The notes under the pieces were generated by a model. That model was not told where the DNA came from, did no database searches, and saw only the letters and a list, made by a program, of their open reading frames with translations. A stretch of DNA of 64,000 nucleotides from Naegleria gruberi (Eukaryota): NCBI GenBank assembly GCA_000004985.1, contig GG738882.1; one strand, written 5' to 3'. The position numbers and the translations under genes are program-made. Shown in pieces: positions 7,313 through 58,455 of this stretch (positions are counted from its first letter, which is position 1; each line of letters begins with the position of its first letter).

Positions 7313-7384
7313 CTCCCGTGCCGGGAATTGAACCCGGATCTCCTGGGTGAGAGCCAGGTATCTTAGCCATTGGACCACACGGGA
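7313..7384 (-). tRNA. tRNA-Glu (anticodon CUC)
   Basis: Reverse complement: TCCCGTGTGGTCCAATGGCTAAGATACCTGGCTCTCACCCAGGAGATCCGGGTTCAATTCCCGGCACGGGAG. The acceptor stem TCCCGTG/CACGGGA and T8 are present. The anticodon stem is CCTGG/CCAGG with loop CTCTCAC, giving U33, anticodon CTC and A37. The T-arm is CCGGG-TTCAATT-CCCGG. It is very similar to canonical eukaryotic tRNA-Glu(CUC). Confidence 0.9.
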
Positions 7385-10600: not shown

Positions 10601-13600
10601 TGTAACTTCAAATTTGACTGTCTTGACAGTTTGCTCTTGAGAGAATGAGCTCTTTACTGTAACTTGAACCAAATAAGAACCAACACTAAGAGTTTCTGCT
10701 GTGAATGAAACACCAGAGCTAGTAACTGAAGCGAGGAGATTATCAACCTTTTCATCATCATCTGGGGTTGGAGCTTCAATGTTTGTCCAAGAGAAGAGAA
10801 GCTTTCTTCTATCCAAAGATACAGAACCAGATGCATCCAAATAGATACTACCACAAGCCTTTGAGATGGATGCCTTGTCAGTAGTCAATACAGCAGCAGG
10901 AGCAATACTTTGATATTCCTTCTTATTAACAAGAACATCTTCTGTTTCTTCACTATCAAGATAACTTCTGAACTTTAAGGTATCTCCAATATTAATTGTA
11001 GCCATAGAACCGAGGACAATTTGGAATACATTCTTTTCGTTAAAGATACAAACAGGATTGGATCCCAATGAATCAACATTGGCAATAACACTAGAACACT
11101 TGATTCTCTTCTTGATTGGTGTGAAAATTGTACCAACAATAGAGTCACCCTTTTCAGTGAAACCAAATGTTGTTTCATCAACCTTATAATCACACTTATC
11201 ACCGTACCAACCTGGTAAACAAGATTCACAGCTGGCACCAATTGAATTACCTTGACATGAGCATGTACCATCCTTATTACAAGTACCCTTTGAATTACAA
11301 TTAACTGAAGCAGAACAAGCAATTTGACAATTATCACCAACATAACCATCCTTACAAGTATTACAGAATTCTCCTACCCAATTGCTACCAGCACTACAGA
11401 CACACTTGAATTCAGAATTACAAGTACCATGACTATTACAAGTAAATTCATCAGAACATGTTCTTTCTAAACATCCTTCACCAGTGTATGCAGGAGTACA
11501 AATTGAACAATACTTTTGAGGGTCATAATTTCCACTACATGAACAAACACCGGATGAAATACATTTACCCTTAGAAGAACAAACAAATGAAGTGTTGGAA
11601 CGGTCAATACCATCACACTTAAAGTTTTGACAACTTGATCCATCATAACCATCATTACATTTACAAACTGGAACACCATTTTCAGCAACACAACTACCTC
11701 TACCACCACAAACACTCTTATCAGTTGCGGTAATACCATTACAAATTGCAATATCACATGTTGGACCAGTAAATCCATTCTTACATTTATCACAATAAGT
11801 ACCAGCAAAATTACCCAAACAAGAACAAGTATTTGGTGAAACACATTGACCACGGAATGAACAGCCACCTTCAGTTTCAGTCTTACCATTACAAGTTGGT
11901 GTAGAACAGTCATAACCTGAATAACCATTTTGACATTTACACAAGTTAGGAGAATCACAGGTACCCTTTGATGAACAAGCATCAGAAGCAGTACTTTCCT
12001 TTCCGTAACAGATTGGAGATTGACAATAACTTCCTGTATAACCTTGCTTACATGAACAAGTATCTTGATCAACACATGAACCCTTACCAGAACAAACTCC
12101 AGTTGCAGAGTATTCCTTTCCAAAACATGTAGTATTTGGTGGTAAATAACTGCCATAGTAACAATTTGAGGTTGGCAATGTGGAACAATCAGTTGTGAAC
12201 AAGTCAGGATGAGTAACTTCATTGTTGAGAATAATAGAGCAAACACCTGAACACCATTGCTTTTCTTCTGGAACACCCAAAGCTGAAGGATTACATGGAG
12301 TGAATGATTGATAGCACAAGAATTTCTTAATGGCTGCTTTACAATCGTCTCCACATTCAAGACCTCTACTCTCAACTTGTTTCAATACTTCAGAGTAGTT
12401 AGTACTGGTAGTTTGATCCAATTTCAACAAATTAGCAACAATCATGGTCTTGGCTTCAACGGCATTAGTGGCACCTACTGCAAAATTAGTATTCTTAATA
12501 CTGTACTTGACATGAGCCTTACAGAATGGAACGGATACAGATGGAGCAGAAATACAAGCTGGAGTGAGTGTGTAAATATTACATTCATCACCATAGTATT
12601 CTGGAGGACAAACACGCTTACATTTACCACTTGTCATTGAATAACCAGAAATACAAGATGAACATGGTTGACTAGTATTAGTAGTGAGATAGCCAGTGTT
12701 ACAGATACAAGTTGTAGTTGATGATGTAGTATCAACATATTGACATACACCTTGTCCACAACCATTCTTACAAACTGGATCAGTTCTTACACAGGTACCA
12801 AACTTGTTGACATAACCTGCTGATGTAGAACAAGAGCAACCAGTGGTTGCCTTGGAGAAACCTAACAATGAATTACAAACACAAACACCTGCCTTGGAAA
12901 GATAACCTTGAGTGGTATCACAATAGCATGATCCTTCATTGTCTGGCAAGTAACCCAAATCAGCATTACAGACACAAGCGTTTGAAACATTGACCAAACC
13001 AACTGGACAAGCAGTACATGGATTTGTACTGTCAACAGTGATAAACTTATTTCTACATTCACAATATCCAATAGTGGTATTAGTCTTGAAGAAACAATCA
13101 CCATTTGATCCACAATTCAAATCACACTTGACAAGAGGAGTAATACATTGACCATCCTTTAGAGTTAATCCTTCTTTACAGACACATCCTCCGGAAACTT
13201 CATCAGAAACAAATCCAAGTGAGCTATCACAGACACATTTTCCATCAGAGAGAACAAATCCAGATTTACACTTTTGACAATTTGAGCCAGCAAAGTTATT
13301 GAAACAATTACAGAGTTGGTTACCCTTAGCGTCCTTAGTACATTCACCATTAGCACCACAATTCAAAACGCATGGTTTAACTTCACAGAGTGAACCGCTA
13401 TAATTATCAGTACAATTACAATAGGCAGTTCCTGTTGTGTTGACACAAGTACCATGTTGACAATCGAGAGTACATGGAGCAATGGTACATTGAGTTCCCT
13501 TGAATCCTTGATAACAAGTGCAAGTATCAATTCCACTACAGCTTCCCATTCCTGAACAAACTGAAACATTATTCATTGAAATTCCGTAGCAGGTANNNNN

Positions 13601-16600
13601 NNNNNNNNNNNNNNNNNNNNNNNNNNNNNNNNNNNNNNNNNNNNNNNNNNNNNNNNNNNNNNNNNNNNNNNNNNNNNNNNNNNNNNNNNNNNNNNNNNNN
13701 NNNNNNNNNNNNNNNNNNNNNNNNNNNNNNNNNNNNNNNNNNNNNNNNNNNNNNNNNNNNNNNNNNNNNNNNNNNNNNNNNNNNNNNNNNNNNNNNNNNN
13801 NNNNNNNNNNNNNNNNNNNNNNNNNNNNNNNNNNNNNNNNNNNNNNNNNNNNNNNNNNNNNNNNNNNNNNNNNNNNNNNNNNNNNNNNNNNNNNNNNNNN
13901 NNNNNNNNNNNNNNNNNNNNNNNNNNNNNNNNNNNNNNNNNNNNNNNNNNNNNNNNNNNNNNNNNNNNNNNNNNNNNNNNNNNNNNNNNNNNNNNNNNNN
14001 NNNNNNNNNNNNNNNNNNNNNNNNNNNNNNNNNNNNNNNNNNNNNNNNNNNNNNNNNNNNNNNNNNNNNNNNNNNNNNNNNNNNNNNNNNNNNNNNNNNN
14101 NNNNNNNNNNNNNNNNNNNNNNNNNNNNNNNNNNNNNNNNNNNNNNNNNNNNNNNNNNNNNNNNNNNNNNNNNNNNNNNNNNNNNNNNNNNNNNNNNNNN
14201 NNNNNNNNNNNNNNNNNNNNNNNNNNNNNNNNNNNNNNNNNNNNNNNNNNNNNNNNNNNNNNNNNNNNNNNNNNNNNNNNNNNNNNNNNNNNNNNNNNNN
14301 NNNNNNNNNNNNNNNNNNNNNNNNNNNNNNNNNNNNNNNNNNNNNNNNNNNNNNNNNNNNNNNNNNNNNNNNNNNNNNNNNNNNNNNNNNNNNNNNNNNN
14401 NNNNNNNNNNNNNNNNNNNNNNNNNNNNNNNNNNNNNNNNNNNNNNNNNNNNNNNNNNNNNNNNNNNNNNNNNNNNNNNNNNNNNNNNNNNNNNNNNNNN
14501 NNNNNNNNNNNNNNNNNNNNNNNNNNNNNNNNNNNNNNNNNNNNNNNNNNNNNNNNNNNNNNNNNNNNNNNNNNNNNNNNNNNNNNNNNNNNNNNNNNNN
14601 NNNNNNNNNNNNNNNNNNNNNNNNNNNNNNNNNNNNNNNNNTTTGACAAGTACAATTATTTGGGGATGAGCAAAAACCTTTTCCTGAACAAACATTTCGA
14701 TCATTGTAGAGAGAAATTGAACAGTTGTGGAATTGACAATTCTCACCATAATATCCATCTTGACATGTACAATTATTTGGAAGTGCACATAAACCATGAC
14801 CACTACAAACCAATGAAGAAGTTGATGGAATAGAGGAACAGTTAAATAATTTACAAGTTTCTCCATAATAGTCCAATTGACATTCACACTTATTTGGTTG
14901 AGAACATTTACCATTACCAGAACAAGCTGATGAATCATCATAACGTACAGATGAACAATTATACAATTCACAATTATTTCCATAATAGCCTGCATTACAT
15001 TTACAAGTATCTAAATCAACACATGAACCATGGCTGGAACAAACATCTCTTGAATCAGCATAGGTGTTATCACAACTTGGAATTTCACAATTATTTCCCT
15101 TAAATCCACCGTTACACTCACAAACATCAATATCAGTACATTTACCATTACCACTACAAACCATAGTAGAATTTGATGGAACAGATTTACAATTATACAC
15201 TTCACATGACTTTCCATAATAACCACCCTCACAAGAACATTGATTTGGAGCAATACAAGGACCTCTTGATGAACATACAGAATTTTCATTCTTGTAAGTG
15301 CCATAACAATCAAATTGAGAACAATCCTTGCCATAGTATCCTTCTTTACATGAACATTGATCTGGAGCAATGCAGCTTCCCAAACCAGAACATACAAGTT
15401 TGTCATCTGAAACAATGCCGAAACACTTTGGTTTTTCACAAGCAGTACCAGAGTAGATTGCTTCAAAGGTAGAATTTCCAGATTGGAAGCAAACCTTTCC
15501 AGCATAATTGAACAATGCTAATACACCATCATTTTCAAGAACCAAAGTAAATGGATGACTAATTCCAGAGTCAGAACATGTTACAAATTTGTTAGGAGAG
15601 TATCTAACATCAGATCCATCTTTTGGTGATTCACCAATGAACAATAATTGACCAAGAGCTGAGACTTCAATACGAACATTATTAGCCTCAACATTCCATT
15701 CACTAACAACTTCTCCAGTTGAAACCTTCTTAATCTTGATGTAGGTTAATTCAACAAGGAGTACATATTGTCCATTATTAGAAACCAATGAAGAATTTCC
15801 ATTCACAGCCACAACATTCAAAGCACTTGAAATGAATGAATTGCTTGAATTGAAACCACCACAAGAACAAGTACTTGGTGAAACGCAGAAACCTTGTCCA
15901 GAGCAAACTTGGGCATCATTATTGAAAACGCCAGAACATGTAAAGACTGCACAGGATTCACCTTCAAAACCAGCTTTACAGGAACAATTGTTATGGGAAA
16001 GACACTTGCCATTTCCGCTACATGCAGAATTATCGAGTGAATTGACATTGAAACAGTCGAACTTTTCACATTGTTCACCATATTCATTGTTCAAACATTT
16101 ACAACTGTTCGGAGCTGTACAAACACCTTTACCTGAAGTACAAGCTTTGGAATCATCAAAGGAAAGACCGAAACATTCGTATTTTTCACATTTAACACCA
16201 TAATATCCTTCAGGGCAAGAACAATTATCTGGTGAAATACATGAACCAACTCTGGAGCATGGTGATTCACTGACAGAAATATTGTAACAATAGTAATTTT
16301 CACAACGATCTCCAGAATATCCTGGTTGACAAAGACACGAGTTAGGACTATCGCACACTCCATGGCCTGAACAAACAGTGCTATTGGAGCTTGAAAGAGC
16401 GTAACAATCATGGAATTGGCATTCAGGTCCATAATATCCGTCTAAACATTCACATTTTCCAGGTTGAGTACAGTTACCATTTCTAGAACAAGCATTGACA
16501 TCACCAGCAGCAAAGTTGTAACATTGTGGAATATTACAATTCGATCCACTATAATGCAAAGAGTCAGTTGAGTTGAATTCTACACTGGCAAAACAAACTG

Positions 16601-39162: not shown

Positions 39163-40272
39163 ATGAAGATAGGCTACGTTGGTATGAATAGGGCACTCAA
39201 ATTAACAACCTCCAATACAACCCGATTGAATAATGTTTCTCCAAAGAAGATTAAAGAAAAATTGCTAGTTAATATTGATCACTTGAAAAAGATGCTCAAG
39301 TGGAATGTTCAGAAGAATTTGCTCTTCTTTAGAATTGGAAGTGAATTTGTGCCATTTGCTAGTCATGAAAAGGTTCGGGATGAAGAATTCAAGCAAGAAT
39401 TTAATTGGATTGAGGAATGCGAAGATGATCTAAAGGAGATTGGAAAGTTTGTAAAGGAAAATAATATTAGAATTAGCATGCACCCTGATCAATTTGTATT
39501 GATTAATTCACCTGATATGGAAATATTCAATAGATCCTATGAAGAATTGAACTATCACGCTCAATTGATGAATACTATGGGATTAGATACCACTCATAAA
39601 TTCCAAATACATTTGGGTGGAAAGTATGATGACAAGAGAAAGTCAATGCAAAGATTTGTTGATCGATACAAGAATAATTTGAATGATGCTATCAGGGCTC
39701 GATGTGTATTGGAAAATGATGATAGAATTTATAGTTTGGAAGATGTGTATTGGATACATCAACAATGTGGCATTCCAATTCTCTTTGATACATTGCATCA
39801 TGAATGTTTGAATTCAAATGGTGACTCTTTAGAAGTGGCATTCAAGAAAGCTGCTAGTACTTGGGATCCGGTTAAGGATGGTGTTCCTCTTATTGACTAT
39901 TCAGATCAAGAACCAGGTGCACGTATTGGAAATCATAGAAAGAGCATTGAATTGAAGCATTTCAAGAAGGTAATTTGTGACAAGTTAATGAAATGCAAGA
40001 ACGATGATGGAGAATTTATTGAATTTGATGTCATGTTGGAAATCAAGGATAAGGACGCTAGTGCCATTAAGATCTTACCAGTCTTTTTAAAAGGTGTTGA
40101 GGATAGAGAAAAGGATCCAGAACCAACTGAGGATGACAATCAAGAAGATTTAAAAGTCCAAGTATTAGAGGAAGATGAGGACGAAGCAGTATCGAGTGAG
40201 GAAGAAAAACCAAAGAAGAGAAAGAAGGCACCAACCAAGAAGGCATCCACTACCAAGAGAAAGAAAAAATAA
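39163..40272 (+). CDS. uvdE: UV damage endonuclease (UvdE/Uve1 family) with a Lys-rich, NLS-like C-terminal tail
   Basis: 'MKIGYVGMNRAL...NLLFFRIGSEFVPFASH...IRISMHPDQFVLINSP...LNYHAQLM...FQIHLGGKYDDK...RCVLENDDRIYSLEDV...CGIPILFDTLHH' matches conserved UvdE blocks. These are GyvsiN, fRisSdlfPfash, iRlSmHPdqF, LeyHa, vviHlGG and LvLENDDk. The tail is '...KPKKRKKAPTKKASTTKRKKK'. Confidence 0.85.
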   Translation: MKIGYVGMNRALKLTTSNTTRLNNVSPKKIKEKLLVNIDHLKKMLKWNVQKNLLFFRIGSEFVPFASHEKVRDEEFKQEFNWIEECEDDLKEIGKFVKENNIRISMHPDQFVLINSPDMEIFNRSYEELNYHAQLMNTMGLDTTHKFQIHLGGKYDDKRKSMQRFVDRYKNNLNDAIRARCVLENDDRIYSLEDVYWIHQQCGIPILFDTLHHECLNSNGDSLEVAFKKAASTWDPVKDGVPLIDYSDQEPGARIGNHRKSIELKHFKKVICDKLMKCKNDDGEFIEFDVMLEIKDKDASAIKILPVFLKGVEDREKDPEPTEDDNQEDLKVQVLEEDEDEAVSSEEEKPKKRKKAPTKKASTTKRKKK

Positions 40273-46406: not shown

Positions 46407-46412
46407 TAAAAA
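46407..46412 (-). terminator. Pol III T-run terminator immediately 3' of the 5S gene
   Basis: Plus-strand 'aaaaa' at 46408-46412 gives TTTTT on the minus strand directly after ...GTAGTC. Confidence 0.6.
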
Positions 46413-46530
46413 GACTACAGCACCACAGGTTCCCAAGTTGTCTCCAACCTCAGTACTGATGTGGCTCGACGATGCTTAACTTCTCAAATCGGACGGGATG
46501 AGGTGCATTCATCGTGATATGGCCGTAGCC
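46411..46530 (-). rRNA. 5S ribosomal RNA gene (solitary)
   Basis: Reverse complement: GGCTACGGCCATATCACGATGAATGCACCTCATCCCGTCCGATTTGAGAAGTTAAGCATCGTCGAGCCACATCAGTACTGAGGTTGGAGACAACTTGGGAACCTGTGGTGCTGTAGTCTT, 120 nt. It carries canonical 5S blocks (GGCCATA, CATCCCGTCCGAT, AGTACT, GGTTGGAGACAAC, GGGAAC, GGTGCTGTAG). As I recall the Dictyostelium 5S rRNA, it also has 'GGTTGGAGACAAC'. Confidence 0.9.
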
Positions 46531-50530: not shown

Positions 50531-52441
50531 TTAATAAAAATATGCTTGCTTCTTTGAATTATAAGTTTCTTCATCTAGACAGACCAGTGAACAGTCTCTA
50601 CATTTAGTAAAGCATGCAACAATATCCTCTGGATTAGTGACAAGTACAGGAATTGAATCACTAAGAGGAACTCCCTTTTTGAATGCTTCTGGTGCGTACT
50701 TGACTAAAAGCTCTTTGTTTAATCTGTAAAAGAAATAGGTTGAGACAGGAGTTGGGTTAACAAGGAACCATTGCAAAACTTCTTCTTGCTGTTTCACATC
50801 AAATAAGGAGACAATTTCCATTGCTCTACTGTGTCCAATATTTTGTGAATTATGAGCAATTCCTTCTTTTAAGAATGTCCTACACCACTTTTTCCTTACT
50901 TCCATATCACAATAATTACTTAAGATTTGTGATCCCAATACAAATGCATAAATGTCTGGTTGTTTTCTTGCTAGTTCCAAAATCTTTTCCATATTTTCCT
51001 CATAGTTTTGATAGGTAAAAGGTGGTAATCCCCATGCCTGTAACACCTTTGATTGTATTGAATTATTCTCATCCCTAAATTGTAAAAATAAAGATGGTTT
51101 GGTATCGGCTATCATTTTTACTATTCTTGGATCTTCAGTCACCTTGGTTGAAAAGTTAACTATTGATTGAGGATTGATTGCAAAAAGTTTCTTTGCAAGA
51201 GGTCTGCAATCTTTCCAGAAGGCCGGCAAATAAGTGATGAGGCTTGGATTTTTCATCAATATCATTTCAACAATTTCCTTGTCTTGTAATAGTTCTTCTT
51301 GATTCAAAAATGCAGGGAAAGATGTCATATCTTCAATTTGATTGATTCCTTTGATTACCAATTTGCGGAAACCAGGGGTAGAGTAGGGAATATATTCCAA
51401 AGAGTAAGGTTTGGAAGAAACAGCAATTTCTAATAATTCTTGATGATTTCTCAGAAAATTAGAACTGAGATATTTGATAGCAAATCCATTTTGTTTTACA
51501 GCTTGAGTGACAACCTGCTTATCTTGCAAAAACTTGGTGCAATATTTTAACATTTTACCATGTGAGTTGACCAATCGAAGGCAAAAATCTCTATCTTCCA
51601 AGAAGGATTGAGGTATTTCCTTACCAATCTTGTAGTAAATTTTTGCAGCCTTTACAAGAAAATCTGGATCATTGAATTTTGGAGAGATTGCACTAATGGT
51701 CTTGGCAATTTGTTGAGGAGAAAGATCACGAGCTGTAAAATGTTTCAATAAACAAAGAGCTAATGGAGTGGATGTCACACCTGCAGGTAGTCGATTAAAT
51801 ATTTGTCTTCCACAAGCAATTTTACAATACTTTTGGAAACTATCTGCCTCAATTGTAAACATTGATGAAGGTGGATCGAATAGAGCATCCCATATATTAG
51901 TTTTTGTATTGTAATGGCCACTTGTACTAATAACAAGGTTATTATATTTCCCATTCGGAACTAGGACAATGTTATCACTAATACTAACAAGGTTATTCGT
52001 CTTTTCCCATAACTTGATTGGATATATCCAGTGTGCAGGATACGAATAATATGAATAGCTGGCAACATTCATATCTTCATCGAAATGTCTCGTCATCATC
52101 AGTAACTCTTTAATAATAAATGGAATTTTACAATTTAATTCAGTTTCAACTCTTTCAAATTCCTGTTGATATCGTTCTCTATATTCATCATCACAATCAA
52201 TTAATTGAAATTTATCAATCAAATGTTCATTATAAATAGTCAAATACTCCCGAAACACTCTACGAAAATAATTTAAAAAGGTGGCAACAAGTTGTCGATT
52301 CGTCACTCTAAAATTGCTCGATTCTCTGAATGGAATAAAACTGAATAATAATTCTAAAATTTCCGATGGTAAATCAAGTAATTTATAAAGATGATTGGAG
52401 GTGGTGGAAATTGTTGTGATCATAGTTTGATCGTGTTGCAT
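50531..52441 (-). CDS. F-box-like protein with DUF4116-type repeats
   Basis: The N-terminal F-box motif is 'LLDLPSEILELLFSFIPF'. The C-terminal half contains 'DKQVVTQAVKQNGFAIKYLSSNFLRNHQELLEIAV'-type DUF4116 repeats. Confidence 0.55.
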   Translation of the reverse strand: MQHDQTMITTISTTSNHLYKLLDLPSEILELLFSFIPFRESSNFRVTNRQLVATFLNYFRRVFREYLTIYNEHLIDKFQLIDCDDEYRERYQQEFERVETELNCKIPFIIKELLMMTRHFDEDMNVASYSYYSYPAHWIYPIKLWEKTNNLVSISDNIVLVPNGKYNNLVISTSGHYNTKTNIWDALFDPPSSMFTIEADSFQKYCKIACGRQIFNRLPAGVTSTPLALCLLKHFTARDLSPQQIAKTISAISPKFNDPDFLVKAAKIYYKIGKEIPQSFLEDRDFCLRLVNSHGKMLKYCTKFLQDKQVVTQAVKQNGFAIKYLSSNFLRNHQELLEIAVSSKPYSLEYIPYSTPGFRKLVIKGINQIEDMTSFPAFLNQEELLQDKEIVEMILMKNPSLITYLPAFWKDCRPLAKKLFAINPQSIVNFSTKVTEDPRIVKMIADTKPSLFLQFRDENNSIQSKVLQAWGLPPFTYQNYEENMEKILELARKQPDIYAFVLGSQILSNYCDMEVRKKWCRTFLKEGIAHNSQNIGHSRAMEIVSLFDVKQQEEVLQWFLVNPTPVSTYFFYRLNKELLVKYAPEAFKKGVPLSDSIPVLVTNPEDIVACFTKCRDCSLVCLDEETYNSKKQAYFY

Positions 52442-52585: not shown

Positions 52586-54295
52586 TTAGAGTTTTGTCTT
52601 TTTGTACATGGACTTGAGTGCCTTTTGTCTAAGATCTTCCATTTCTTCAACGGATCGTTTGTTTTCTCCTCTATCAACTTTGATTCGGTCAGTTTCGTAA
52701 ATGGAGGCAAGATTTTTCTTTACTTCATCCTTTCTAAAGTTCTTTTCATAGGTTGCTAGATTGTGGACCTTAGCTCCTAAGGCAGTGGTACAATTTCTTG
52801 AAACCAAATTAGAAAGTTCAGCAATTTGTTTCAACAATTCACTTTCGTTTTCAATTTTTTTGTACTTTTTCAAATATTGTTCAAGAATGAAAACTTCAGA
52901 TCTGCAATCATAACAATGATCCATTCCTTCAACTTGCACGTTGTGTGGATAATAGTGAACTCTTGTTCTGGTATTGAAATAAAACATTTGACTTTCGTAT
53001 TTTGCAGTATCGTATGGAATAGTTCCACAATCTTTTGAACATACTAATCTTGTTTCGGTTGTTGTTTGAGGTCCCCATACTGGCAAGTAAATATCTCCCT
53101 TCAAATATTCATAGCTCTTCTCAGATTGTGTATCATAAGGTAGACGAAACTTGAGCATGGACATTTTTGGTTTAATTGTCAAATGCCAATTCATTTGTGC
53201 TTGATTATCCCACTTGACACACTTTTCAATCTCCTCACGGTGCTCTACTGTTTGATTTTCATTTCCCTTCTCTGGTTGAGCTGTTCTAATATCACTAATA
53301 AACAACACATTTTTATCAGCATACTTTGCAGCCAACTCATCAGTAAAGAAATCATTCACAATTGTAATCTTATCTGTTGGTTTACAAACAAATGGACTTG
53401 GATCTACAAGTACGAAACTCAAATCAGGAAATAAATCACTCAAAAAGTTTGTGTGGTGGCCAGGAGCAGCACCTGCATAAACAACAATTGCACCAGGATA
53501 ACCAAATTCAGTTAAGAATTCAATTTCTGACATGAGTAATTTACGTTGACCCCAGTGAATGACACTCTTCAACTCTGACTTTCTTCTACGGTAAGTTTCT
53601 TGAGGATCGTGTGGTTGGAGTATACGATTGGTTCTATCGAATGGTTTCTCTTCAATGTGTGGATCATTGTAGTGCAATATTTGTTCACAATGTGGATTTG
53701 ATTTCTTATCTGGCCATTCGTAATTTTCATATTGTTTCTTTCGGTAGGAGAGAACGAATTGATTGGGAGCTCTGTTGAATTGATGGTAGAATCGAACTCT
53801 TCCTTGCGGTTGTTGATAGGAAGATGTATAGGAATGTGGAGGAGAATATCTATCCTCATCCCTTTTTCTGAATCCTGCTTGTCTGATATAAGAAGAAGAA
53901 GAAGCAGAAGCATGATAATATTCTTGTCTACCATATGAAGGCCGTTCTTCTCTTTCTTGATAATGAACATGAGAAGAATGGAAAGGCCTTATGTTGCCAG
54001 CATTTCGTGCCTTAATTGGTTTTCTATCCTGATAAGGGGACGCAGAGGAACCAACACTGAAGCGTTCTTCTTCCTCATGATATTGGTGTTGGTAATTTCG
54101 TTGTTTATTATCTGAACGATAAGAAGAATTATCAACAACAAAATTATCCCTTCTGGAAGAAATGTATTGCCTATTGCTGGAGCTGCTAAAAGTTGAACGA
54201 GTTCCATCTGGTTGTTGAGGAGTATCACATTGTCGAGAACGTTGGAGGTTGTTGTTGTGATTATTGTTGGTTTGAGGGTGGCCACGATTGTTCAT
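52586..54295 (-). CDS. Poxvirus VP39-like mRNA cap (nucleoside-2'-O)-methyltransferase homologue with an RS/RY-rich N-terminal region
   Basis: The catalytic domain aligns with vaccinia VP39. 'HWGQRKLLMSEIEFLTEF..GAIVVYAGAAPGHHTNFLSDLF' matches 'YQGQLKLLLGELFFLSKLQ...[22 protein letters not shown]'. 'VLFISDIRT' matches 'IILISDVRS'. 'FRLPYDTQ...YLPVWGPQTTTETRLV' matches '[34 protein letters not shown]'. Residues ~1-230 are low-complexity R/S/Y/Q-rich, e.g. '...RSDNKQRNYQHQYHEEEER...YRRRKS'. Confidence 0.7.
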   Translation of the reverse strand: MNNRGHPQTNNNHNNNLQRSRQCDTPQQPDGTRSTFSSSSNRQYISSRRDNFVVDNSSYRSDNKQRNYQHQYHEEEERFSVGSSASPYQDRKPIKARNAGNIRPFHSSHVHYQEREERPSYGRQEYYHASASSSSYIRQAGFRKRDEDRYSPPHSYTSSYQQPQGRVRFYHQFNRAPNQFVLSYRKKQYENYEWPDKKSNPHCEQILHYNDPHIEEKPFDRTNRILQPHDPQETYRRRKSELKSVIHWGQRKLLMSEIEFLTEFGYPGAIVVYAGAAPGHHTNFLSDLFPDLSFVLVDPSPFVCKPTDKITIVNDFFTDELAAKYADKNVLFISDIRTAQPEKGNENQTVEHREEIEKCVKWDNQAQMNWHLTIKPKMSMLKFRLPYDTQSEKSYEYLKGDIYLPVWGPQTTTETRLVCSKDCGTIPYDTAKYESQMFYFNTRTRVHYYPHNVQVEGMDHCYDCRSEVFILEQYLKKYKKIENESELLKQIAELSNLVSRNCTTALGAKVHNLATYEKNFRKDEVKKNLASIYETDRIKVDRGENKRSVEEMEDLRQKALKSMYKKTKL

Positions 54296-54529: not shown

Positions 54530-56266
54530 CTACTTGGAAGATAATCCGTAATTCATGTTGAATAGTTCTTGTATTTCAGTCGAATCCAAGAAGGGTTCCA
54601 AATCTGTTTCCACTTCCGAGCCAGCTGAGAAACTATCCAAAAAGCTGTTTAAACTTTCTTCATATTCCTTCATTCGGTGTTGAACTAGATTTTCATCCTC
54701 CCTTTCTGTTGTTGGAGTCAGGTCATTAAGATTGGAGATGTATTGGAAAAACTCATTGGCAGATTCAATTTTTGATAAATCCACAGTTGGGGGAGAAAAG
54801 CTCTGATTGGTAATGCATTCATTGAGGGCGTTATAGAATTGTTTCCTCTCAATTATTGTTTCAATTTCCTTAATCATATTGTGGTGGAAGAGTTGAACAC
54901 CCTTGTATCGTTTAGAGAGAATTTGAAGAGCTCTCAAATCTTTTGAAAGCACCTGATAGTAATCAATGGCACCTAGAGGAGAAGAAACGTCACAATTCTT
55001 GCGATCTCCCTTTTCAATGAGTTTAACAATTTGCAAATGGATTTTACAAGCAGCAGCAATTGGAGCAATCAAAAAGGAAGGAGAAAATGATAATTGGCCT
55101 GATTCAGTTGTGGTGGTTATTTTCAAAGCGCATTCTTCAATTTTATCCTTTCCTCTATTCATTTCAGTATAAATTCTAATCTTGAGTCCATTTCCAACAA
55201 TTTCTGCAATATCATTAAGAGTTCCAGAAACCCTCTGATTCTTCATCATCATTCCTTTACAAATACTAATTACAGCATCCAACATTTGAATGAAAATCAC
55301 ATAGGTACTCTCTGTTAATTTCTGGTCCAAAATCATACTCCACTCCTTTGGGAACTTGACGCCAATATGTTTTTCAGCAATTTCATGCCAATCTTTTAGC
55401 ATTCCCATAGCCGTATTCTCACTCTTGGCTTCACAGGTAAGAACTTGCTTGAATTTTTTCAAATTTATCTGATACTTTGTTGCTTTTAAATCGTCAATTG
55501 GGTTTTCATCTAAATAAAATTCAACAAATTTAAGGTAAAATCTAGCAGTTTTCAATTTTCCACATCCAATTTCATAACATGCCAAGTATGCATAGGCACT
55601 TGCTACATAAAAATTAGAGTGTTCATCGAAAATCTTGCTGAGAGCATCTCTGGCTTTACGTGCTGATTCATCTGCTGTTGGTGATGCAAGAGTTTCCTGC
55701 TCAATTTGTGCCTTAATAGCCATAAACATGGCCTTGACCTCTTTACAATTCGGTAATGAATCATCCTTACTCAATAAATAAGTTTCCAATTCCTTCGGAT
55801 TAATAACCCAAATCTCAGACATCATTTCTTCATAAATATCCAAATATTTCCTCATCTCTGCAAACTCATTAATTGTCTGATAAAGATTTCCTCCAACTCC
55901 AACTCCAGCACTAATATTACTTCCATTACCACCAATAGAAGAATTTGTAATAATACTTCCTGAATTAATTGTCAAATTATTAATCGAAATTAAATTATTA
56001 CAAGTTTCATTGAACGATGAATTTTCCATCTGGAATGTAATCTTTCCATCATTATTTGATTTCTTCTTCTTCCGAATCCTAGAGGCTCCCTTCTTTGCCT
56101 CTTCATAAACACATTCAACCTTCCTCCATTTACATCCACTACATGATGGCAATGCCCGATCGCAACATTTATGAAGACGTTTACAATTATTGCATGCTAT
56201 TGGATGGAATTGTGGTTTTTCTTCATCTATTGTGCCTGGTGATGGTGAGGATAATGGTTGTTGCAT
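54530..56266 (-). CDS. Zn(II)2Cys6 binuclear-cluster transcription factor (second copy of the class in the window)
   Basis: The N-terminus carries 'ACNNCKRLHKCCDRALPSCSGCKWRKVECVY' followed by a basic stretch 'RIRKKKK'. It is a single continuous ORF. Confidence 0.7.
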   Translation of the reverse strand: MQQPLSSPSPGTIDEEKPQFHPIACNNCKRLHKCCDRALPSCSGCKWRKVECVYEEAKKGASRIRKKKKSNNDGKITFQMENSSFNETCNNLISINNLTINSGSIITNSSIGGNGSNISAGVGVGGNLYQTINEFAEMRKYLDIYEEMMSEIWVINPKELETYLLSKDDSLPNCKEVKAMFMAIKAQIEQETLASPTADESARKARDALSKIFDEHSNFYVASAYAYLACYEIGCGKLKTARFYLKFVEFYLDENPIDDLKATKYQINLKKFKQVLTCEAKSENTAMGMLKDWHEIAEKHIGVKFPKEWSMILDQKLTESTYVIFIQMLDAVISICKGMMMKNQRVSGTLNDIAEIVGNGLKIRIYTEMNRGKDKIEECALKITTTTESGQLSFSPSFLIAPIAAACKIHLQIVKLIEKGDRKNCDVSSPLGAIDYYQVLSKDLRALQILSKRYKGVQLFHHNMIKEIETIIERKQFYNALNECITNQSFSPPTVDLSKIESANEFFQYISNLNDLTPTTEREDENLVQHRMKEYEESLNSFLDSFSAGSEVETDLEPFLDSTEIQELFNMNYGLSSK

Positions 56267-57003: not shown

Positions 57004-58319
57004 TTATAGTGATTTGGCAATTATTTTATCCAATGAATCTTTCATCTCATTTCCATTCGAATCAACCATTAAAAAAGATTTTTTCAAATCCTTAATGAGC
57101 TTAAAATGATTTTTCACATTTCGAATAACAGATTCCTTGCCGAACACATGTTCTAATATTTCTTTCAAAGCAATAACATCAGCAGCAGCTGTATGCTGAT
57201 TTTCAATTGATTTTCTAAATAACTGTTGATAAATGTTACCTAATTTACATTGATTTTTCTCTAATTTCAACGCTTTCTTCAAAATTGGAATTGTATCTAA
57301 GAAAATGATATGACTATTTTTCAAACCATCTATTGTCTTTGAATTATTCATTCTCCAGTAATTGAAAGCACGATGTAGAACACTTTTGTCGAATGGTGCA
57401 TTATGAGCAAGAATTAAGGATTTCTTTGGTAAGAAATCAACAATTAATTTAACTGCTTCCATTTCCTTAGTTCCATTTTGCACCAATTCATTTGTGATTC
57501 CTGTTAATTTTTCAGCATCTCGTAAAATTTTCACTCTAGGAAGGATATATTTTGGAAATGATAAAAATCTATCTTTTGAAATATTATAAATATAACAATC
57601 AGTTGGAGCTCTTGTTTGAAGATCAGTTGTTTCAAAGTCCAAAATCAATACATCATATTCCTCAATAGATTCAATAAGACTACATTTGAATTGATGAGTA
57701 GTGCAGCCACCATTATTAAGACAACATTGTCTACATGATTTACAAGGTGCTTTTGTTGCTTTCCTTTTGTTACCACATTGGCACATTTCAATTCTAATTG
57801 AATTACACTTAGTTGATTTCTTTGGAGGAGGGTTTGTATTTGTATTTTGAGAGTTATTAGGTTGTGGTGTTTTTTGTGTATTACATTCAAACATTACTTC
57901 ATCCTCTTCCTTTTCCATTTTGAATTTTTCTAATCTAATCTTCCTACATAATTCTTGCTGAAGAGCATTTGTTAAATAGCAAGAATTCACCATACAATCG
58001 GATATTACTTTAGCCTTATCAGTTGAGCAATCATGTTTGGTCTGTAAATGATTTGACAAACTCTTTCCAATCACATAATTTTTTTGACATAAAGGACAAA
58101 CAATTGGATCGTTCTTGTTGCTGACTACATCAGTATCTTTCCGTAATGGAATTGAGTTTTGTTTCATATTAATGCTCTTAATTATTGTTTGCACATTGCC
58201 AATTACATCTTTTGGAACAACAATTTTTTTTACAAAATTATCTGGCAATGGAGGAATATCATATTCCAATATGAATCTTCCAATTGTAATGGTTGACTCT
58301 GCGTGAATTCCATAGCCTG
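57004..58319 (-). CDS. DEDD-family 3'-5' exonuclease (DnaQ/RNase T-like) with C2H2 zinc finger and Cys-cluster; 5' end unresolved because of an assembly gap
   Basis: Exonuclease motifs are 'VLILDFETTDL' (Exo I), 'ILAHNAPFDKSVLHRAF' (Exo II) and 'HTAAADVIALKEIL' (Exo III). The C2H2 finger is 'CPLCQKNYVIGKSLSNHLQTKH'. The Cys cluster is 'CQCGNKRKATKAPCKSCRQCC'. The track's N-terminus 'MLKKXXXX' lies across the 50-N gap (58320-58369), so it is an artefact. Confidence 0.65.
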
Positions 58320-58369
58320 NNNNNNNNNNNNNNNNNNNNNNNNNNNNNNNNNNNNNNNNNNNNNNNNNN
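58320..58369. other. Assembly gap (50 N)
   Basis: Run of n. Confidence 0.99.
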
Positions 58370-58455
58370 ATTTTTTTGAGCATAAAATTTTTATCAACTC
58401 AATTTTATTGTTTACAATTTGTCGAAATACTAACGTTGCATCGTTCCTCGCAACT

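What the first reader, a model, noticed from the sequence alone, without database searches (positions are those of the whole stretch)
52586..54295. Cellular homologue of poxvirus VP39-type cap 2'-O-methyltransferase fused to an RS/RY-rich N-terminal domain
The C-terminal ~330 aa aligns motif by motif with vaccinia VP39. The blocks are GQxKLL, VVYxGxAPGxH, the LISDIR/LISDVRS block and the Pro-rich cap-binding segment. VP39-like methyltransferases are best known from poxviruses, some other nucleocytoplasmic large DNA viruses and kinetoplastid cap-4 enzymes. The usual eukaryotic cap1 enzyme (CMTR1) is FtsJ-type instead. A nuclear, apparently intronless copy is notable. Its long Arg/Ser/Tyr-rich N-terminus resembles SR or CTD-interacting regions, suggesting co-transcriptional recruitment. 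Its origin could be ancient eukaryotic or acquired from a giant virus.
Basis: partly seen in the sequence, partly recalled or inferred. Interest (0 to 1): 0.75.

Follow-up and report, generated by a model that had tools for sequence, protein, structure and literature searches.

The report
Naegleria VP39-type mRNA cap ribose methyltransferase
This is an already catalogued Naegleria gruberi nuclear gene for an enzyme that methylates the sugar of a nucleotide next to the mRNA cap; the family is common in protists and giant viruses, so the find is ordinary, except that its closest tested relative marks the third nucleotide.

Summary
Window 52586-54295 (-) is an intact 569-aa ORF. Residues 233-472 match Pfam PF01358 (E=3.6e-22), and residues 242-445 match VP39 crystal-structure sequences (E~1e-10; 2e-27 with a family profile). 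A confident AlphaFold model finds only VP39 structures as top hits. The K-D-K-E tetrad (K252/D335/K382/E414), the AdoMet contacts and the m7G-pocket residues (Y235/Y387/E434) are all present.

It is not new. The protein is identical to N. gruberi XP_002674806.1 (NAEGRDRAFT_70140, UniProt D2VMH7), which UniRef already names a cap-specific 2'-O-methyltransferase. Werner et al. 2011 placed a Naegleria gruberi member in the TbMTr2 branch. The family is large (4,451 representative clusters) and spans many cellular eukaryotes and giant viruses.

The N-terminal 184 aa is S/R/Q/N/Y-rich low-complexity sequence. It is not an RS domain (RS/SR dipeptides are not enriched) and is not conserved in N. lovaniensis or Willaertia.

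One refinement: the closest biochemically tested relative (55% identity) is the Medusavirus Cap3MTase (JBC 2026). That enzyme methylates the third transcribed nucleotide, not the first as VP39 does. I found no sign of recent viral acquisition. Low interest overall; the prediction of cellular cap3 is testable.

The parts
52586..54295 (-). Complete single-exon CDS, 569 aa plus stop; identical to N. gruberi XP_002674806.1 / EFC42062.1 / NAEGRDRAFT_70140 / UniProt D2VMH7
53744..54295 (-). N-terminal low-complexity extension, aa 1-184 (S/R/Q/N/Y/P/H-rich, poly-Ser runs). Lineage-specific and probably disordered. Must be translated, because M1 is the only in-frame ATG upstream of the catalytic Lys and the frame has 0 stops in 231 codons
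53600..53743 (-). Subfamily-conserved pre-domain, aa 185-232 (W..NPHCEQ..R224), conserved in Naegleria, Willaertia, Medusavirus and other eukaryotes; absent from VP39
52880..53599 (-). PF01358 (VP39-type) Rossmann-fold methyltransferase core, aa 233-472
53591..53593 (-). Y235, equivalent of VP39 Y22 / TbCom1 Y18 (stacks on m7G)
   Evidence: residue roles from PMC1636459
53540..53542 (-). K252, first Lys of the K-D-K-E tetrad (VP39 K41), inside GQRKLL
53453..53485 (-). AdoMet-binding motif I, VVYAGAAPGHH, aa 271-281 (Y273, G275, G279, H281 = VP39 Y66, G68, G72, H74)
53291..53293 (-). D335, catalytic Asp (VP39 D138), in LFISDIRT; R337 = VP39 R140
53150..53152 (-). K382, second catalytic Lys (VP39 K175)
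53135..53137 (-). Y387, equivalent of VP39 F180 / TbCom1 Y187 (second aromatic of the m7G sandwich)
53054..53056 (-). E414, catalytic Glu (VP39 E207)
52994..52996 (-). E434, equivalent of VP39 E233 / TbCom1 E253 (H-bond to m7G)
52904..52945 (-). Subfamily-specific H451...DHCYDC (C461, C464). Together with H202 (53690-53692) these form a conserved H-H-C-C quartet; possible Zn or structural site (inferred)
52589..52879 (-). C-terminal helical, Lys-rich tail, aa 473-569 (K 17.5%); first two helices modelled with confidence, the rest less so

Best explanation
The ORF is the Naegleria gruberi nuclear gene NAEGRDRAFT_70140. It encodes an active, AdoMet-dependent, m7G-cap-dependent RNA ribose 2'-O-methyltransferase with the VP39 fold. 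Proposed mechanism, inferred from VP39 and TbCom1 structure and mutagenesis: Y235 and Y387 sandwich the m7G base and E434 hydrogen-bonds to it. AdoMet sits on Q250/Y273/G275/G279/H281/D298/D335/I336/R337. The K252-D335-K382-E414 tetrad activates the 2'-OH of a cap-adjacent nucleotide. The protein belongs to a large subfamily shared by cellular eukaryotes and giant viruses. The only biochemically tested member of that subfamily is the Medusavirus Cap3MTase, which methylates the third transcribed nucleotide of m7GpppN-RNA and not the first or second. My estimates for the target position of the Naegleria enzyme are: nucleotide 3 about 0.4, nucleotide 2 (as TbMTr2) about 0.3, nucleotide 1 about 0.15, mixed or other about 0.15. 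The first 184 residues are a lineage-specific, low-complexity and probably disordered extension. This extension is not an RS domain and its role is unknown; nuclear targeting or condensate partitioning are guesses. The gene has been inherited vertically at least within the Naegleria/Willaertia lineage and is not a recent viral insertion.
For: Shown here:
- PF01358 hit at E=3.6e-22.
- VP39 by sequence, 1e-10, and by profile, 2e-27.
- VP39 by fold, with ranks 1-21 all VP39.
- All four catalytic residues, nine AdoMet contacts and three of the four m7G side-chain contacts are conserved and nearly invariant across 46 relatives.
- 100% identity to deposited N. gruberi XP_002674806.1.
- 55% identity over 286 columns to Medusavirus YP_010801901.1, against 28% over 197 columns to VP39. 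P0022 is confirmed to be that accession.
- Orthologues lie on large cellular contigs of N. lovaniensis and Willaertia magna. The Naegleria+Willaertia clade has 100% bootstrap.
- Two homologues occur in the heterolobosean Pharyngomonas.
- The neighbours are cellular genes: F-box/DUF4116, Zn2Cys6, RNase_T, UvdE, LRR, START, 5S rRNA, tRNA.
- GC3 is 0.28, against 0.26+-0.05 for neighbouring ORFs.

From the literature:
- The Cap3MTase is cap-dependent and specific for nucleotide 3 in vitro (PMC13393146).
- TbCom1/TbMTr2 is a cap2 enzyme whose Y18/Y187/E253 bind the cap (PMC1636459).
- A Naegleria gruberi member lies in the TbMTr2 branch (PMC3113572).
Against: No activity, substrate or expression data exist for this protein. 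Position specificity cannot be read from sequence: VP39 (position 1), TbMTr2 (position 2) and Cap3MTase (position 3) share the same catalytic and cap-binding residues. The equivalent of VP39 D182 is T389, although the corresponding D192A change in TbCom1 is harmless. Deep branches of my NJ tree are unresolved, with bootstraps below 30%, so grouping with the Medusavirus enzyme rests on percent identity rather than a supported clade. I could not obtain TbMTr2 or TbMTr3 sequences to place them myself. Whether cap3 exists in vivo is unproven even for Medusavirus.
Confidence: 0.85

Rival explanations
1. It is the orthologue of trypanosome TbMTr2/TbCom1 and makes cap2, that is, it methylates the second transcribed nucleotide.
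For: Werner et al. 2011 placed Naegleria gruberi in the branch containing TbMTr2. Naegleria (Heterolobosea) and kinetoplastids both belong to Discoba (established taxonomy). The Y-Y-E cap-binding residues are the TbCom1 type, with Tyr rather than Phe at the VP39 F180 position. JGI names many close metagenomic homologues 'cap2 methyltransferase'.
Against: The Medusavirus Cap3MTase is 55% identical to the Naegleria protein but only 31.8% identical to TbMTr2. In a side-by-side assay it gave cap3 where TbMTr2 gave cap2. The 2011 tree pre-dates any cap3 biochemistry. The 'cap2' names are automated transfers.
Confidence: 0.3
2. It is the cell's cap1 enzyme (first-nucleotide 2'-O-methylation, like VP39), standing in for an absent CMTR1.
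For: VP39 is the structural prototype. Werner et al. note that Monosiga has a TbMTr2-branch member and an hMTr2 orthologue but no detectable cap1 enzyme. Some subfamily members carry G-patch and WW domains, the same accessory domains as CMTR1 (the CMTR1 architecture is from general knowledge). VP39 and CMTrs show relaxed positional specificity (PMC9479742).
Against: The two characterised relatives that are closer than VP39 do not methylate position 1. I could not check whether N. gruberi has a CMTR1 or TbMTr1 orthologue.
Confidence: 0.15
3. The gene is a recent acquisition from a giant virus, or part of an endogenous giant-virus element.
For: The family is abundant in Nucleocytoviricota: 46 IMG/VR loci; Pithovirus, Mimivirus-like, Tupanvirus and Orpheovirus in BFVD; Medusavirus at 55% identity. 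The gene is intronless.
Against: No viral hallmark genes occur in 64 kb. The neighbours are cellular, including 5S rRNA and tRNA genes. GC and GC3 are within the range of the neighbours. Orthologues are present in N. lovaniensis, Willaertia and Pharyngomonas, with 100% bootstrap for Naegleria+Willaertia. Most IMG/VR homologues are more distant (27-47% identity) than the cellular eukaryote ones. An ancient exchange between viruses and eukaryotes, in either direction, is not excluded.
Confidence: 0.05
4. The N-terminal 184 aa is a functional SR-like or CTD-interacting module that recruits the enzyme co-transcriptionally.
For: Arg-rich charged or low-complexity N-terminal extensions recur in the subfamily (Medusavirus R 30%; P0052; Pharyngomonas b). 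Other members carry WW, G-patch or ankyrin domains there instead. One CTD-heptad-like 'DRYSPPHSY' at aa 148-156 resembles three R[DE]YSPP copies in P0052.
Against: RS/SR dipeptides are not enriched (5 against 6.6-7.1 expected, P=0.87), nor are RY/YR; only SS runs are. The extension is not conserved in length or sequence even in N. lovaniensis (54 aa) or Willaertia (73 aa), and the family median is 18 aa. No Pfam domain matches it.
Confidence: 0.1
5. It is a catalytically dead or repurposed protein, for example a poly(A)-polymerase processivity factor like the second role of VP39.
For: VP39 is bifunctional, and the Pfam family is named for that role.
Against: Every catalytic and AdoMet residue is intact and invariant across the family. 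The processivity role of VP39 depends on the poxvirus VP55 partner (general knowledge; PDB 2ga9), which has no known Naegleria counterpart.
Confidence: 0.03

Closest known systems
Acanthamoeba castellanii medusavirus Cap3MTase (YP_010801901.1; Takemura & Ishige, J Biol Chem 2026, PMC13393146)
   Same: 55% identity over 286 aligned columns (BLASTP E=1e-94). Same K-D-K-E tetrad, Y-Y-E cap pocket, NPH pre-domain and H-H-C-C/DxCYDC motif. Both have an Arg-rich low-complexity N-terminal extension.
   Different: Viral rather than cellular. 427 aa against 569 aa. Its N-terminal extension is 61 aa and R/E/D-rich, against 184 aa and S/R/Q/N/Y-rich here. Its activity (nucleotide 3) is proven in vitro; the Naegleria protein is untested.
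Trypanosoma brucei TbMTr2 / TbCom1 / TbMT48 (cap2 2'-O-methyltransferase)
   Same: A cellular VP39-type enzyme of a discoban protist. Cap-dependent, with Tyr/Tyr/Glu cap-binding residues. Werner et al. 2011 place Naegleria gruberi in its branch.
   Different: Much more distant by the only figure available (31.8% identity to the Medusavirus enzyme). It acts on the spliced-leader cap 4 pathway, which Naegleria is not known to have (general knowledge). I did not align it here.
Vaccinia/monkeypox VP39 (cap1 2'-O-methyltransferase and poly(A) polymerase subunit; PDB 1av6, 8b07)
   Same: Same fold (Foldseek E~1e-18, target TM~0.8), same catalytic tetrad and AdoMet contacts, and an aromatic m7G sandwich.
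   Different: Only 28% identity. VP39 lacks the NPH pre-domain and the H-H-C-C motif, has Phe rather than Tyr at position 180, methylates nucleotide 1, and has a second role with VP55.
CMTR1/CMTR2 (hMTr1/hMTr2), the FtsJ-type cap methyltransferases of animals
   Same: Same chemistry (K-D-K-E ribose 2'-O-methylation of cap-adjacent nucleotides). Some subfamily members carry G-patch and WW domains, like CMTR1.
   Different: A different branch of the RrmJ/fibrillarin superfamily. FtsJ structures match the model only at E~1e-4 with TM~0.3, and there was no Pfam FtsJ hit.

Membership tests
VP39-type cap 2'-O-methyltransferases (Pfam PF01358 PARP_regulatory) | Profile match above the curated gathering score | tested here: met
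   79.1 bits against a cutoff of 25.4, E=3.6e-22, aa 233-472 covering profile positions 16-264 of 292
VP39-type cap 2'-O-methyltransferases (Pfam PF01358 PARP_regulatory) | K-D-K-E catalytic tetrad | tested here: met
   K252, D335, K382 and E414 align to VP39 K41, D138, K175 and E207; conserved in 45-46 of 46 relatives
VP39-type cap 2'-O-methyltransferases (Pfam PF01358 PARP_regulatory) | AdoMet-binding residues (VP39 Q39, Y66, G72, H74, D95, D138, V139, R140) | tested here: met
   Q250, Y273, G279, H281, D298, D335, I336 and R337; residue list from PMC1636459
VP39-type cap 2'-O-methyltransferases (Pfam PF01358 PARP_regulatory) | m7G pocket: two stacking aromatics plus an acidic residue (VP39 Y22, F180, E233; D182 auxiliary) | tested here: met
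   Y235, Y387 and E434 are present. The D182 equivalent is T389 (not conserved in the family; D192A in TbCom1 is near wild type). This rests on alignment only, with no coordinates.
VP39-type cap 2'-O-methyltransferases (Pfam PF01358 PARP_regulatory) | VP39 three-dimensional fold | tested here: met
   AF2 model pLDDT 88.3; Foldseek PDB ranks 1-21 are all VP39, E~1e-18, target TM 0.7-0.8
VP39-type cap 2'-O-methyltransferases (Pfam PF01358 PARP_regulatory) | Cap-dependent ribose 2'-O-methyl transfer | not testable with these tools
   Needs recombinant enzyme and m7GpppN-RNA
Medusavirus Cap3MTase-like subfamily (eukaryotes plus some giant viruses) | High identity across the whole catalytic domain, including the pre-domain and C-terminal motif | tested here: met
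   55% over 286 columns; BLASTP E=1e-94. The H202/H451/C461/C464 quartet is shared: HHCC in 118 of 157 aligned sequences, absent in VP39
Medusavirus Cap3MTase-like subfamily (eukaryotes plus some giant viruses) | Supported monophyly with the characterised enzyme to the exclusion of TbMTr2, TbMTr3 and VP39 | tested here: inconclusive
   NJ tree, 153 sequences, 200 bootstraps: deep nodes below 30%. VP39 was the outgroup. TbMTr2 and TbMTr3 sequences were not obtainable
Medusavirus Cap3MTase-like subfamily (eukaryotes plus some giant viruses) | Methylation of the third transcribed nucleotide | not testable with these tools
   Defined by LC-MS/MS in PMC13393146
TbMTr2 (trypanosome cap2 MTase) orthologous group | Phylogenetic placement with TbMTr2 | not tested
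   Literature only: Werner et al. 2011, Figure 6 text
SR/RS-domain proteins | Enrichment of consecutive RS/SR dipeptides | tested here: not met
   5 RS+SR in aa 1-184 against 7.1+-2.3 in shuffles (P=0.87); the longest run is a single dipeptide
Endogenous giant-virus element | Neighbouring viral hallmark genes or deviant composition | tested here: not met
   21 neighbouring ORFs scanned, none viral; GC3 0.28 against 0.26+-0.05 for neighbours

The most novel reading that the evidence does not exclude
This enzyme, and the several hundred cellular homologues at 45-55% identity in Heterolobosea, Amoebozoa, apusomonads, Capsaspora, choanoflagellates and rotifers, are cellular Cap3 methyltransferases. 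On this reading, 2'-O-methylation of the third transcribed nucleotide (cap3) is a widespread and overlooked feature of eukaryotic mRNA outside kinetoplastids, and Medusavirus captured the gene from a host rather than the reverse. The 2026 paper that characterised the viral enzyme describes it as belonging to 'a distinct viral clade' and mentions no cellular relatives.
Probability: 0.3. Interest if true: 0.55.

Novelty: already known. Interest (0 to 1): 0.22.

Why it matters
As a gene discovery it does not matter. The protein is deposited and auto-annotated, and a Naegleria gruberi member was placed in this family in 2011.

Its residual value is as a pointer. The only enzyme proven to make cap3 in vitro, from Medusavirus in 2026, turns out to have close cellular relatives in many free-living eukaryotes, Naegleria included. 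That makes the question 'do non-kinetoplastid eukaryotes carry cap3?' directly testable. Naegleria gruberi can be grown in culture, and an existing assay is available (m7GpppGAAAA substrate with LC-MS/MS).

Tried and rejected
1. Gene-fusion or neighbourhood link to the RNase_T exonuclease. A Rotaria homologue (P0119) fuses PF01358 to PF00929, and an RNase_T gene lies two genes upstream in the window (57004-58383). BLASTP between the two shows no similarity (best E=7.9). I treat this as coincidence.
2. Conserved synteny. N. gruberi, N. lovaniensis (L001) and Willaertia (L002) have different neighbours, so no operon-like or functional context emerges.
3. Obtaining TbMTr2 and TbMTr3 sequences for my own tree. 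No supplements are held for PMC3113572 or PMC13393146, and the supplement of PMC9479742 holds only figure legends. The afdb50 fold library was unavailable. The homologue search lists only the best 120 hits, all from the close subfamily. I ran no further search on this.
4. Biopython NJ with bootstraps timed out. I replaced it with a numpy NJ. Only the Naegleria+Willaertia and Medusavirus clades are supported, and deep nodes are unresolved.
5. RS, RY and Y-S dipeptide enrichment in the N-terminus is not significant. R next to D/E is marginal (P=0.046, uncorrected). Only SS runs are enriched.
6. Intron evidence for long residence in the genome. The Willaertia model differs from the DNA through a mis-called intron or a frameshift near a poly-T tract, which is not clean evidence of a real intron.
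7. Literature search for Naegleria together with CMTR1 found nothing.
8. Weak Pfam hits at or above E=0.04 (CDGP, NADH_4Fe-4S), and PDB hits to Mediator Med15 (E=0.38) and SdaI (E=1.3), are noise.
9. The short ORFs overlapping the N-terminal coding region (53183-53434 on the + strand; 53569-53970 and 53989-54285 in another frame of the - strand) are by-products of low-complexity composition.
Full report
**What is there**

Window 52586-54295 on the minus strand is an uninterrupted 569-codon ORF with an ATG start. M1 is the only in-frame Met upstream of the catalytic region; the next Met is residue 255. The frame has no stop in the first 231 codons, while another frame has 21. The whole ORF, including its odd N-terminus, is therefore the gene product unless an unseen upstream exon exists.

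- GQRKLL, aa 249-254
- VVYAGAAPGHH, aa 271-281
- LFISDIRT, aa 331-338
- LKFRLPY, aa 381-387
- TTETRL, aa 412-417

**Is it a VP39-type methyltransferase?**

Yes, by every test I could run.
- Pfam PF01358 (PARP_regulatory, the VP39 family) matches aa 233-472 at E=3.6e-22, 79 bits against a gathering score of 25.4. No other methyltransferase family was reported.
- phmmer against PDB sequences returns only VP39 entries, at about 1e-10. A profile built from 46 relatives returns VP39 at 2e-27.
- An AlphaFold2 model of aa 183-569 is confident (pLDDT 88.3, pTM 0.88).
- In Foldseek against the PDB, the first 21 hits are vaccinia or monkeypox VP39 (E about 1e-18, target TM about 0.8). The next fold is bluetongue virus VP4 at 5e-7, and FtsJ follows at 1e-4.

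I aligned VP39 onto the family. The mapping is:
- Catalytic tetrad: K252, D335, K382, E414 (VP39 K41, D138, K175, E207).
- AdoMet contacts: Q250, Y273, G275, G279, H281, D298, I336, R337.
- m7G pocket: Y235, Y387, E434 (VP39 Y22, F180, E233).

These residues are nearly invariant in the 46 relatives. The one difference is that VP39 D182 corresponds to T389. The equivalent D192A mutant of the trypanosome enzyme keeps near wild-type activity (PMC1636459).

**Whose gene is it?**

The protein is 100% identical to 'predicted protein [Naegleria gruberi]', XP_002674806.1 / EFC42062.1 / NAEGRDRAFT_70140 / UniProt D2VMH7. UniRef already names it 'Cap-specific mRNA (nucleoside-2'-O-)-methyltransferase'.

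The window looks like a compact eukaryotic nuclear scaffold:
- a free-standing 5S rRNA gene and a tRNA-Glu;
- neighbours encoding an F-box/DUF4116 protein, a Zn2Cys6 protein, an RNase_T exonuclease, UvdE, LRR, START and eIF2B-epsilon-like proteins, and a giant EGF/REJ protein.

No viral hallmark gene is present. The gene's GC3 (0.28) lies within the range of its neighbours (0.26+-0.05).

Orthologues sit on large cellular contigs of N. lovaniensis (64% identity) and Willaertia magna (57%), with different neighbours. Naegleria+Willaertia form a clade with 100% bootstrap. The heterolobosean Pharyngomonas has two homologues. A recent viral insertion is therefore very unlikely.

**How common is the family?**

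Very common. An exhaustive phmmer scan of 1.84 billion cluster representatives found 4,451 at E<=1e-3 and 1,301 at E<=1e-30. The best 150 are all 36-68% identical to the query.

Named close relatives, at 42-55% identity over about 288 columns:
- Capsaspora and Thecamonas
- Mastigamoeba and Ceratiomyxa
- the choanoflagellates Microstomoeca and Acanthoeca
- the rotifers Brachionus and Rotaria
- Medusavirus

At least 46 IMG/VR giant-virus contigs carry relatives at 27-47% identity. BFVD lists Pithovirus, Mimivirus-like, Tupanvirus, Orpheovirus and Cedratvirus members. Some cellular members add WW, G-patch, ankyrin or RNase_T domains.

**What the literature already says**

(a) The N-terminus. Residues 1-184 are rich in S, R, Q, N and Y, with poly-Ser runs. 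RS/SR dipeptides are not enriched (5 against about 7 expected), nor are RY/YR. No domain matches this region. The extension is 54 aa in N. lovaniensis and 73 aa in Willaertia, N/Y-rich in both and not alignable. The family median is 18 aa.

It is a lineage-specific low-complexity extension, not an RS domain. Arg-rich or charged extensions do recur in the subfamily, including in the Medusavirus enzyme, so a generic role such as nuclear import or condensate partitioning is possible but untested.

(b) The best functional model is not VP39. Takemura & Ishige (J Biol Chem 2026, PMC13393146) purified the Medusavirus protein YP_010801901.1. By LC-MS/MS it proved to be a cap-dependent 2'-O-methyltransferase specific for the third transcribed nucleotide, distinct from VP39 (nucleotide 1) and TbMTr2 (nucleotide 2) run side by side.

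That protein is my hit P0022. It is 55% identical to the Naegleria catalytic region (BLASTP E=1e-94). It is only 29% identical to VP39 and 32% to TbMTr2 by the authors' figures. Naegleria against VP39 is 28%. The paper does not mention cellular homologues.

(c) A subfamily signature. The two proteins share an 'NPH' pre-domain and a 'DxCYDC' motif. H202, H451, C461 and C464 occur together in 118 of 157 aligned sequences. They are absent from VP39 and are lost together in distant viral homologues. This suggests a structural or zinc site, but I had no coordinates to test it.

**Mechanism and its uncertainty**

Cap-dependent ribose 2'-O-methylation is strongly supported (0.85). The target position is not readable from sequence. 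My estimates and reasoning:
- Position 3, about 0.4: the nearest characterised relative.
- Position 2, about 0.3: the Werner tree and the shared discoban ancestry with trypanosomes.
- Position 1, about 0.15: some protists lack CMTR1, and the CMTr literature shows relaxed positional specificity (PMC9479742).
- Mixed or other: the remainder.

My NJ tree leaves deep nodes unresolved, and I could not obtain TbMTr2 or TbMTr3 sequences.

**Verdict**

The gene is already known, the family is widespread in cellular eukaryotes, and the 'RS domain' reading fails its test. The one useful addition is the link to the newly characterised Cap3MTase. It predicts that Naegleria and many other protists may carry cap3, which an existing assay can test directly.

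Noticed in passing
window 7619-28040 (-): Two overlapping giant ORFs (4,823 aa and 2,458 aa, overlapping at 13569-14995 in different frames). They are packed with EGF_2 and Teneurin-type EGF repeats and carry a REJ (polycystin/receptor-for-egg-jelly) domain. This is probably one surface protein of about 7,000 aa split by an intron or a frameshift.
   Followed up: partly
window 52904-52945 and 53690-53692 (-); family alignment: A conserved H202/H451/C461/C464 quartet (NPH ... YxH ... DHCYDC) is specific to the eukaryote/Medusavirus subfamily. It is HHCC in 118 of 157 aligned sequences, absent from VP39, and lost together in distant giant-virus homologues. It may be a zinc or structural site and has not been described in the papers I read.
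   Followed up: partly
window 53837-53863 (-), aa 145-153; P0052 N-terminus: A CTD-heptad-like 'DRYSPPHSY' sits in the N. gruberi extension. An unnamed EukProt homologue (P0052) has three R[DE]YSPP copies in its own R/Y/D/S-rich extension. It is a single copy here and is absent in N. lovaniensis and Willaertia.
   Followed up: partly
proteins P0090, P0104, P0113, P0021, P0107: Choanoflagellate and Ceratiomyxa members of this VP39-type subfamily carry G-patch and/or WW domains. These are the same accessory domains that flank the unrelated FtsJ-type CMTR1, which may be a convergent architecture for coupling to Pol II or splicing.
   Followed up: no
window 57004-58383 (-) and P0119: An RNase_T exonuclease gene lies two genes upstream of the methyltransferase on the same strand, and a Rotaria homologue fuses PF01358 to an RNase_T domain. 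The two exonuclease domains show no specific similarity (BLASTP E=7.9), so this is likely coincidence.
   Followed up: yes
L002:10001-11333 (Willaertia magna JBEGDK010000021.1): The deposited Willaertia gene model (P0003, 394 aa) lacks about 39 aa of AdoMet motif I-II that the DNA does encode in frame 0. The reading frame shifts near a poly-T tract, which indicates a mis-called intron, a tiny intron or an assembly frameshift.
   Followed up: partly
window 46412-46530 (-) and 7313-7384 (-): A free-standing 5S rRNA gene (105 bits) and a tRNA-Glu(CUC) lie among the protein-coding genes.
   Followed up: no
window 50531-52441 (-) and 54530-56266 (-): The immediate neighbours are an F-box-like protein with three DUF4116 repeats and a protein with a fungal-type Zn2Cys6 binuclear cluster, the latter being unusual outside fungi. 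A UvdE UV-damage endonuclease lies at 39163-40272 (+).
   Followed up: no
window 53600-54295 (-), alternative frame: One alternative frame of the low-complexity N-terminal coding region has only 2 stops in 231 codons, which produces the 98-aa and 133-aa overlapping ORFs. I read this as a compositional by-product rather than an overlapping gene.
   Followed up: partly
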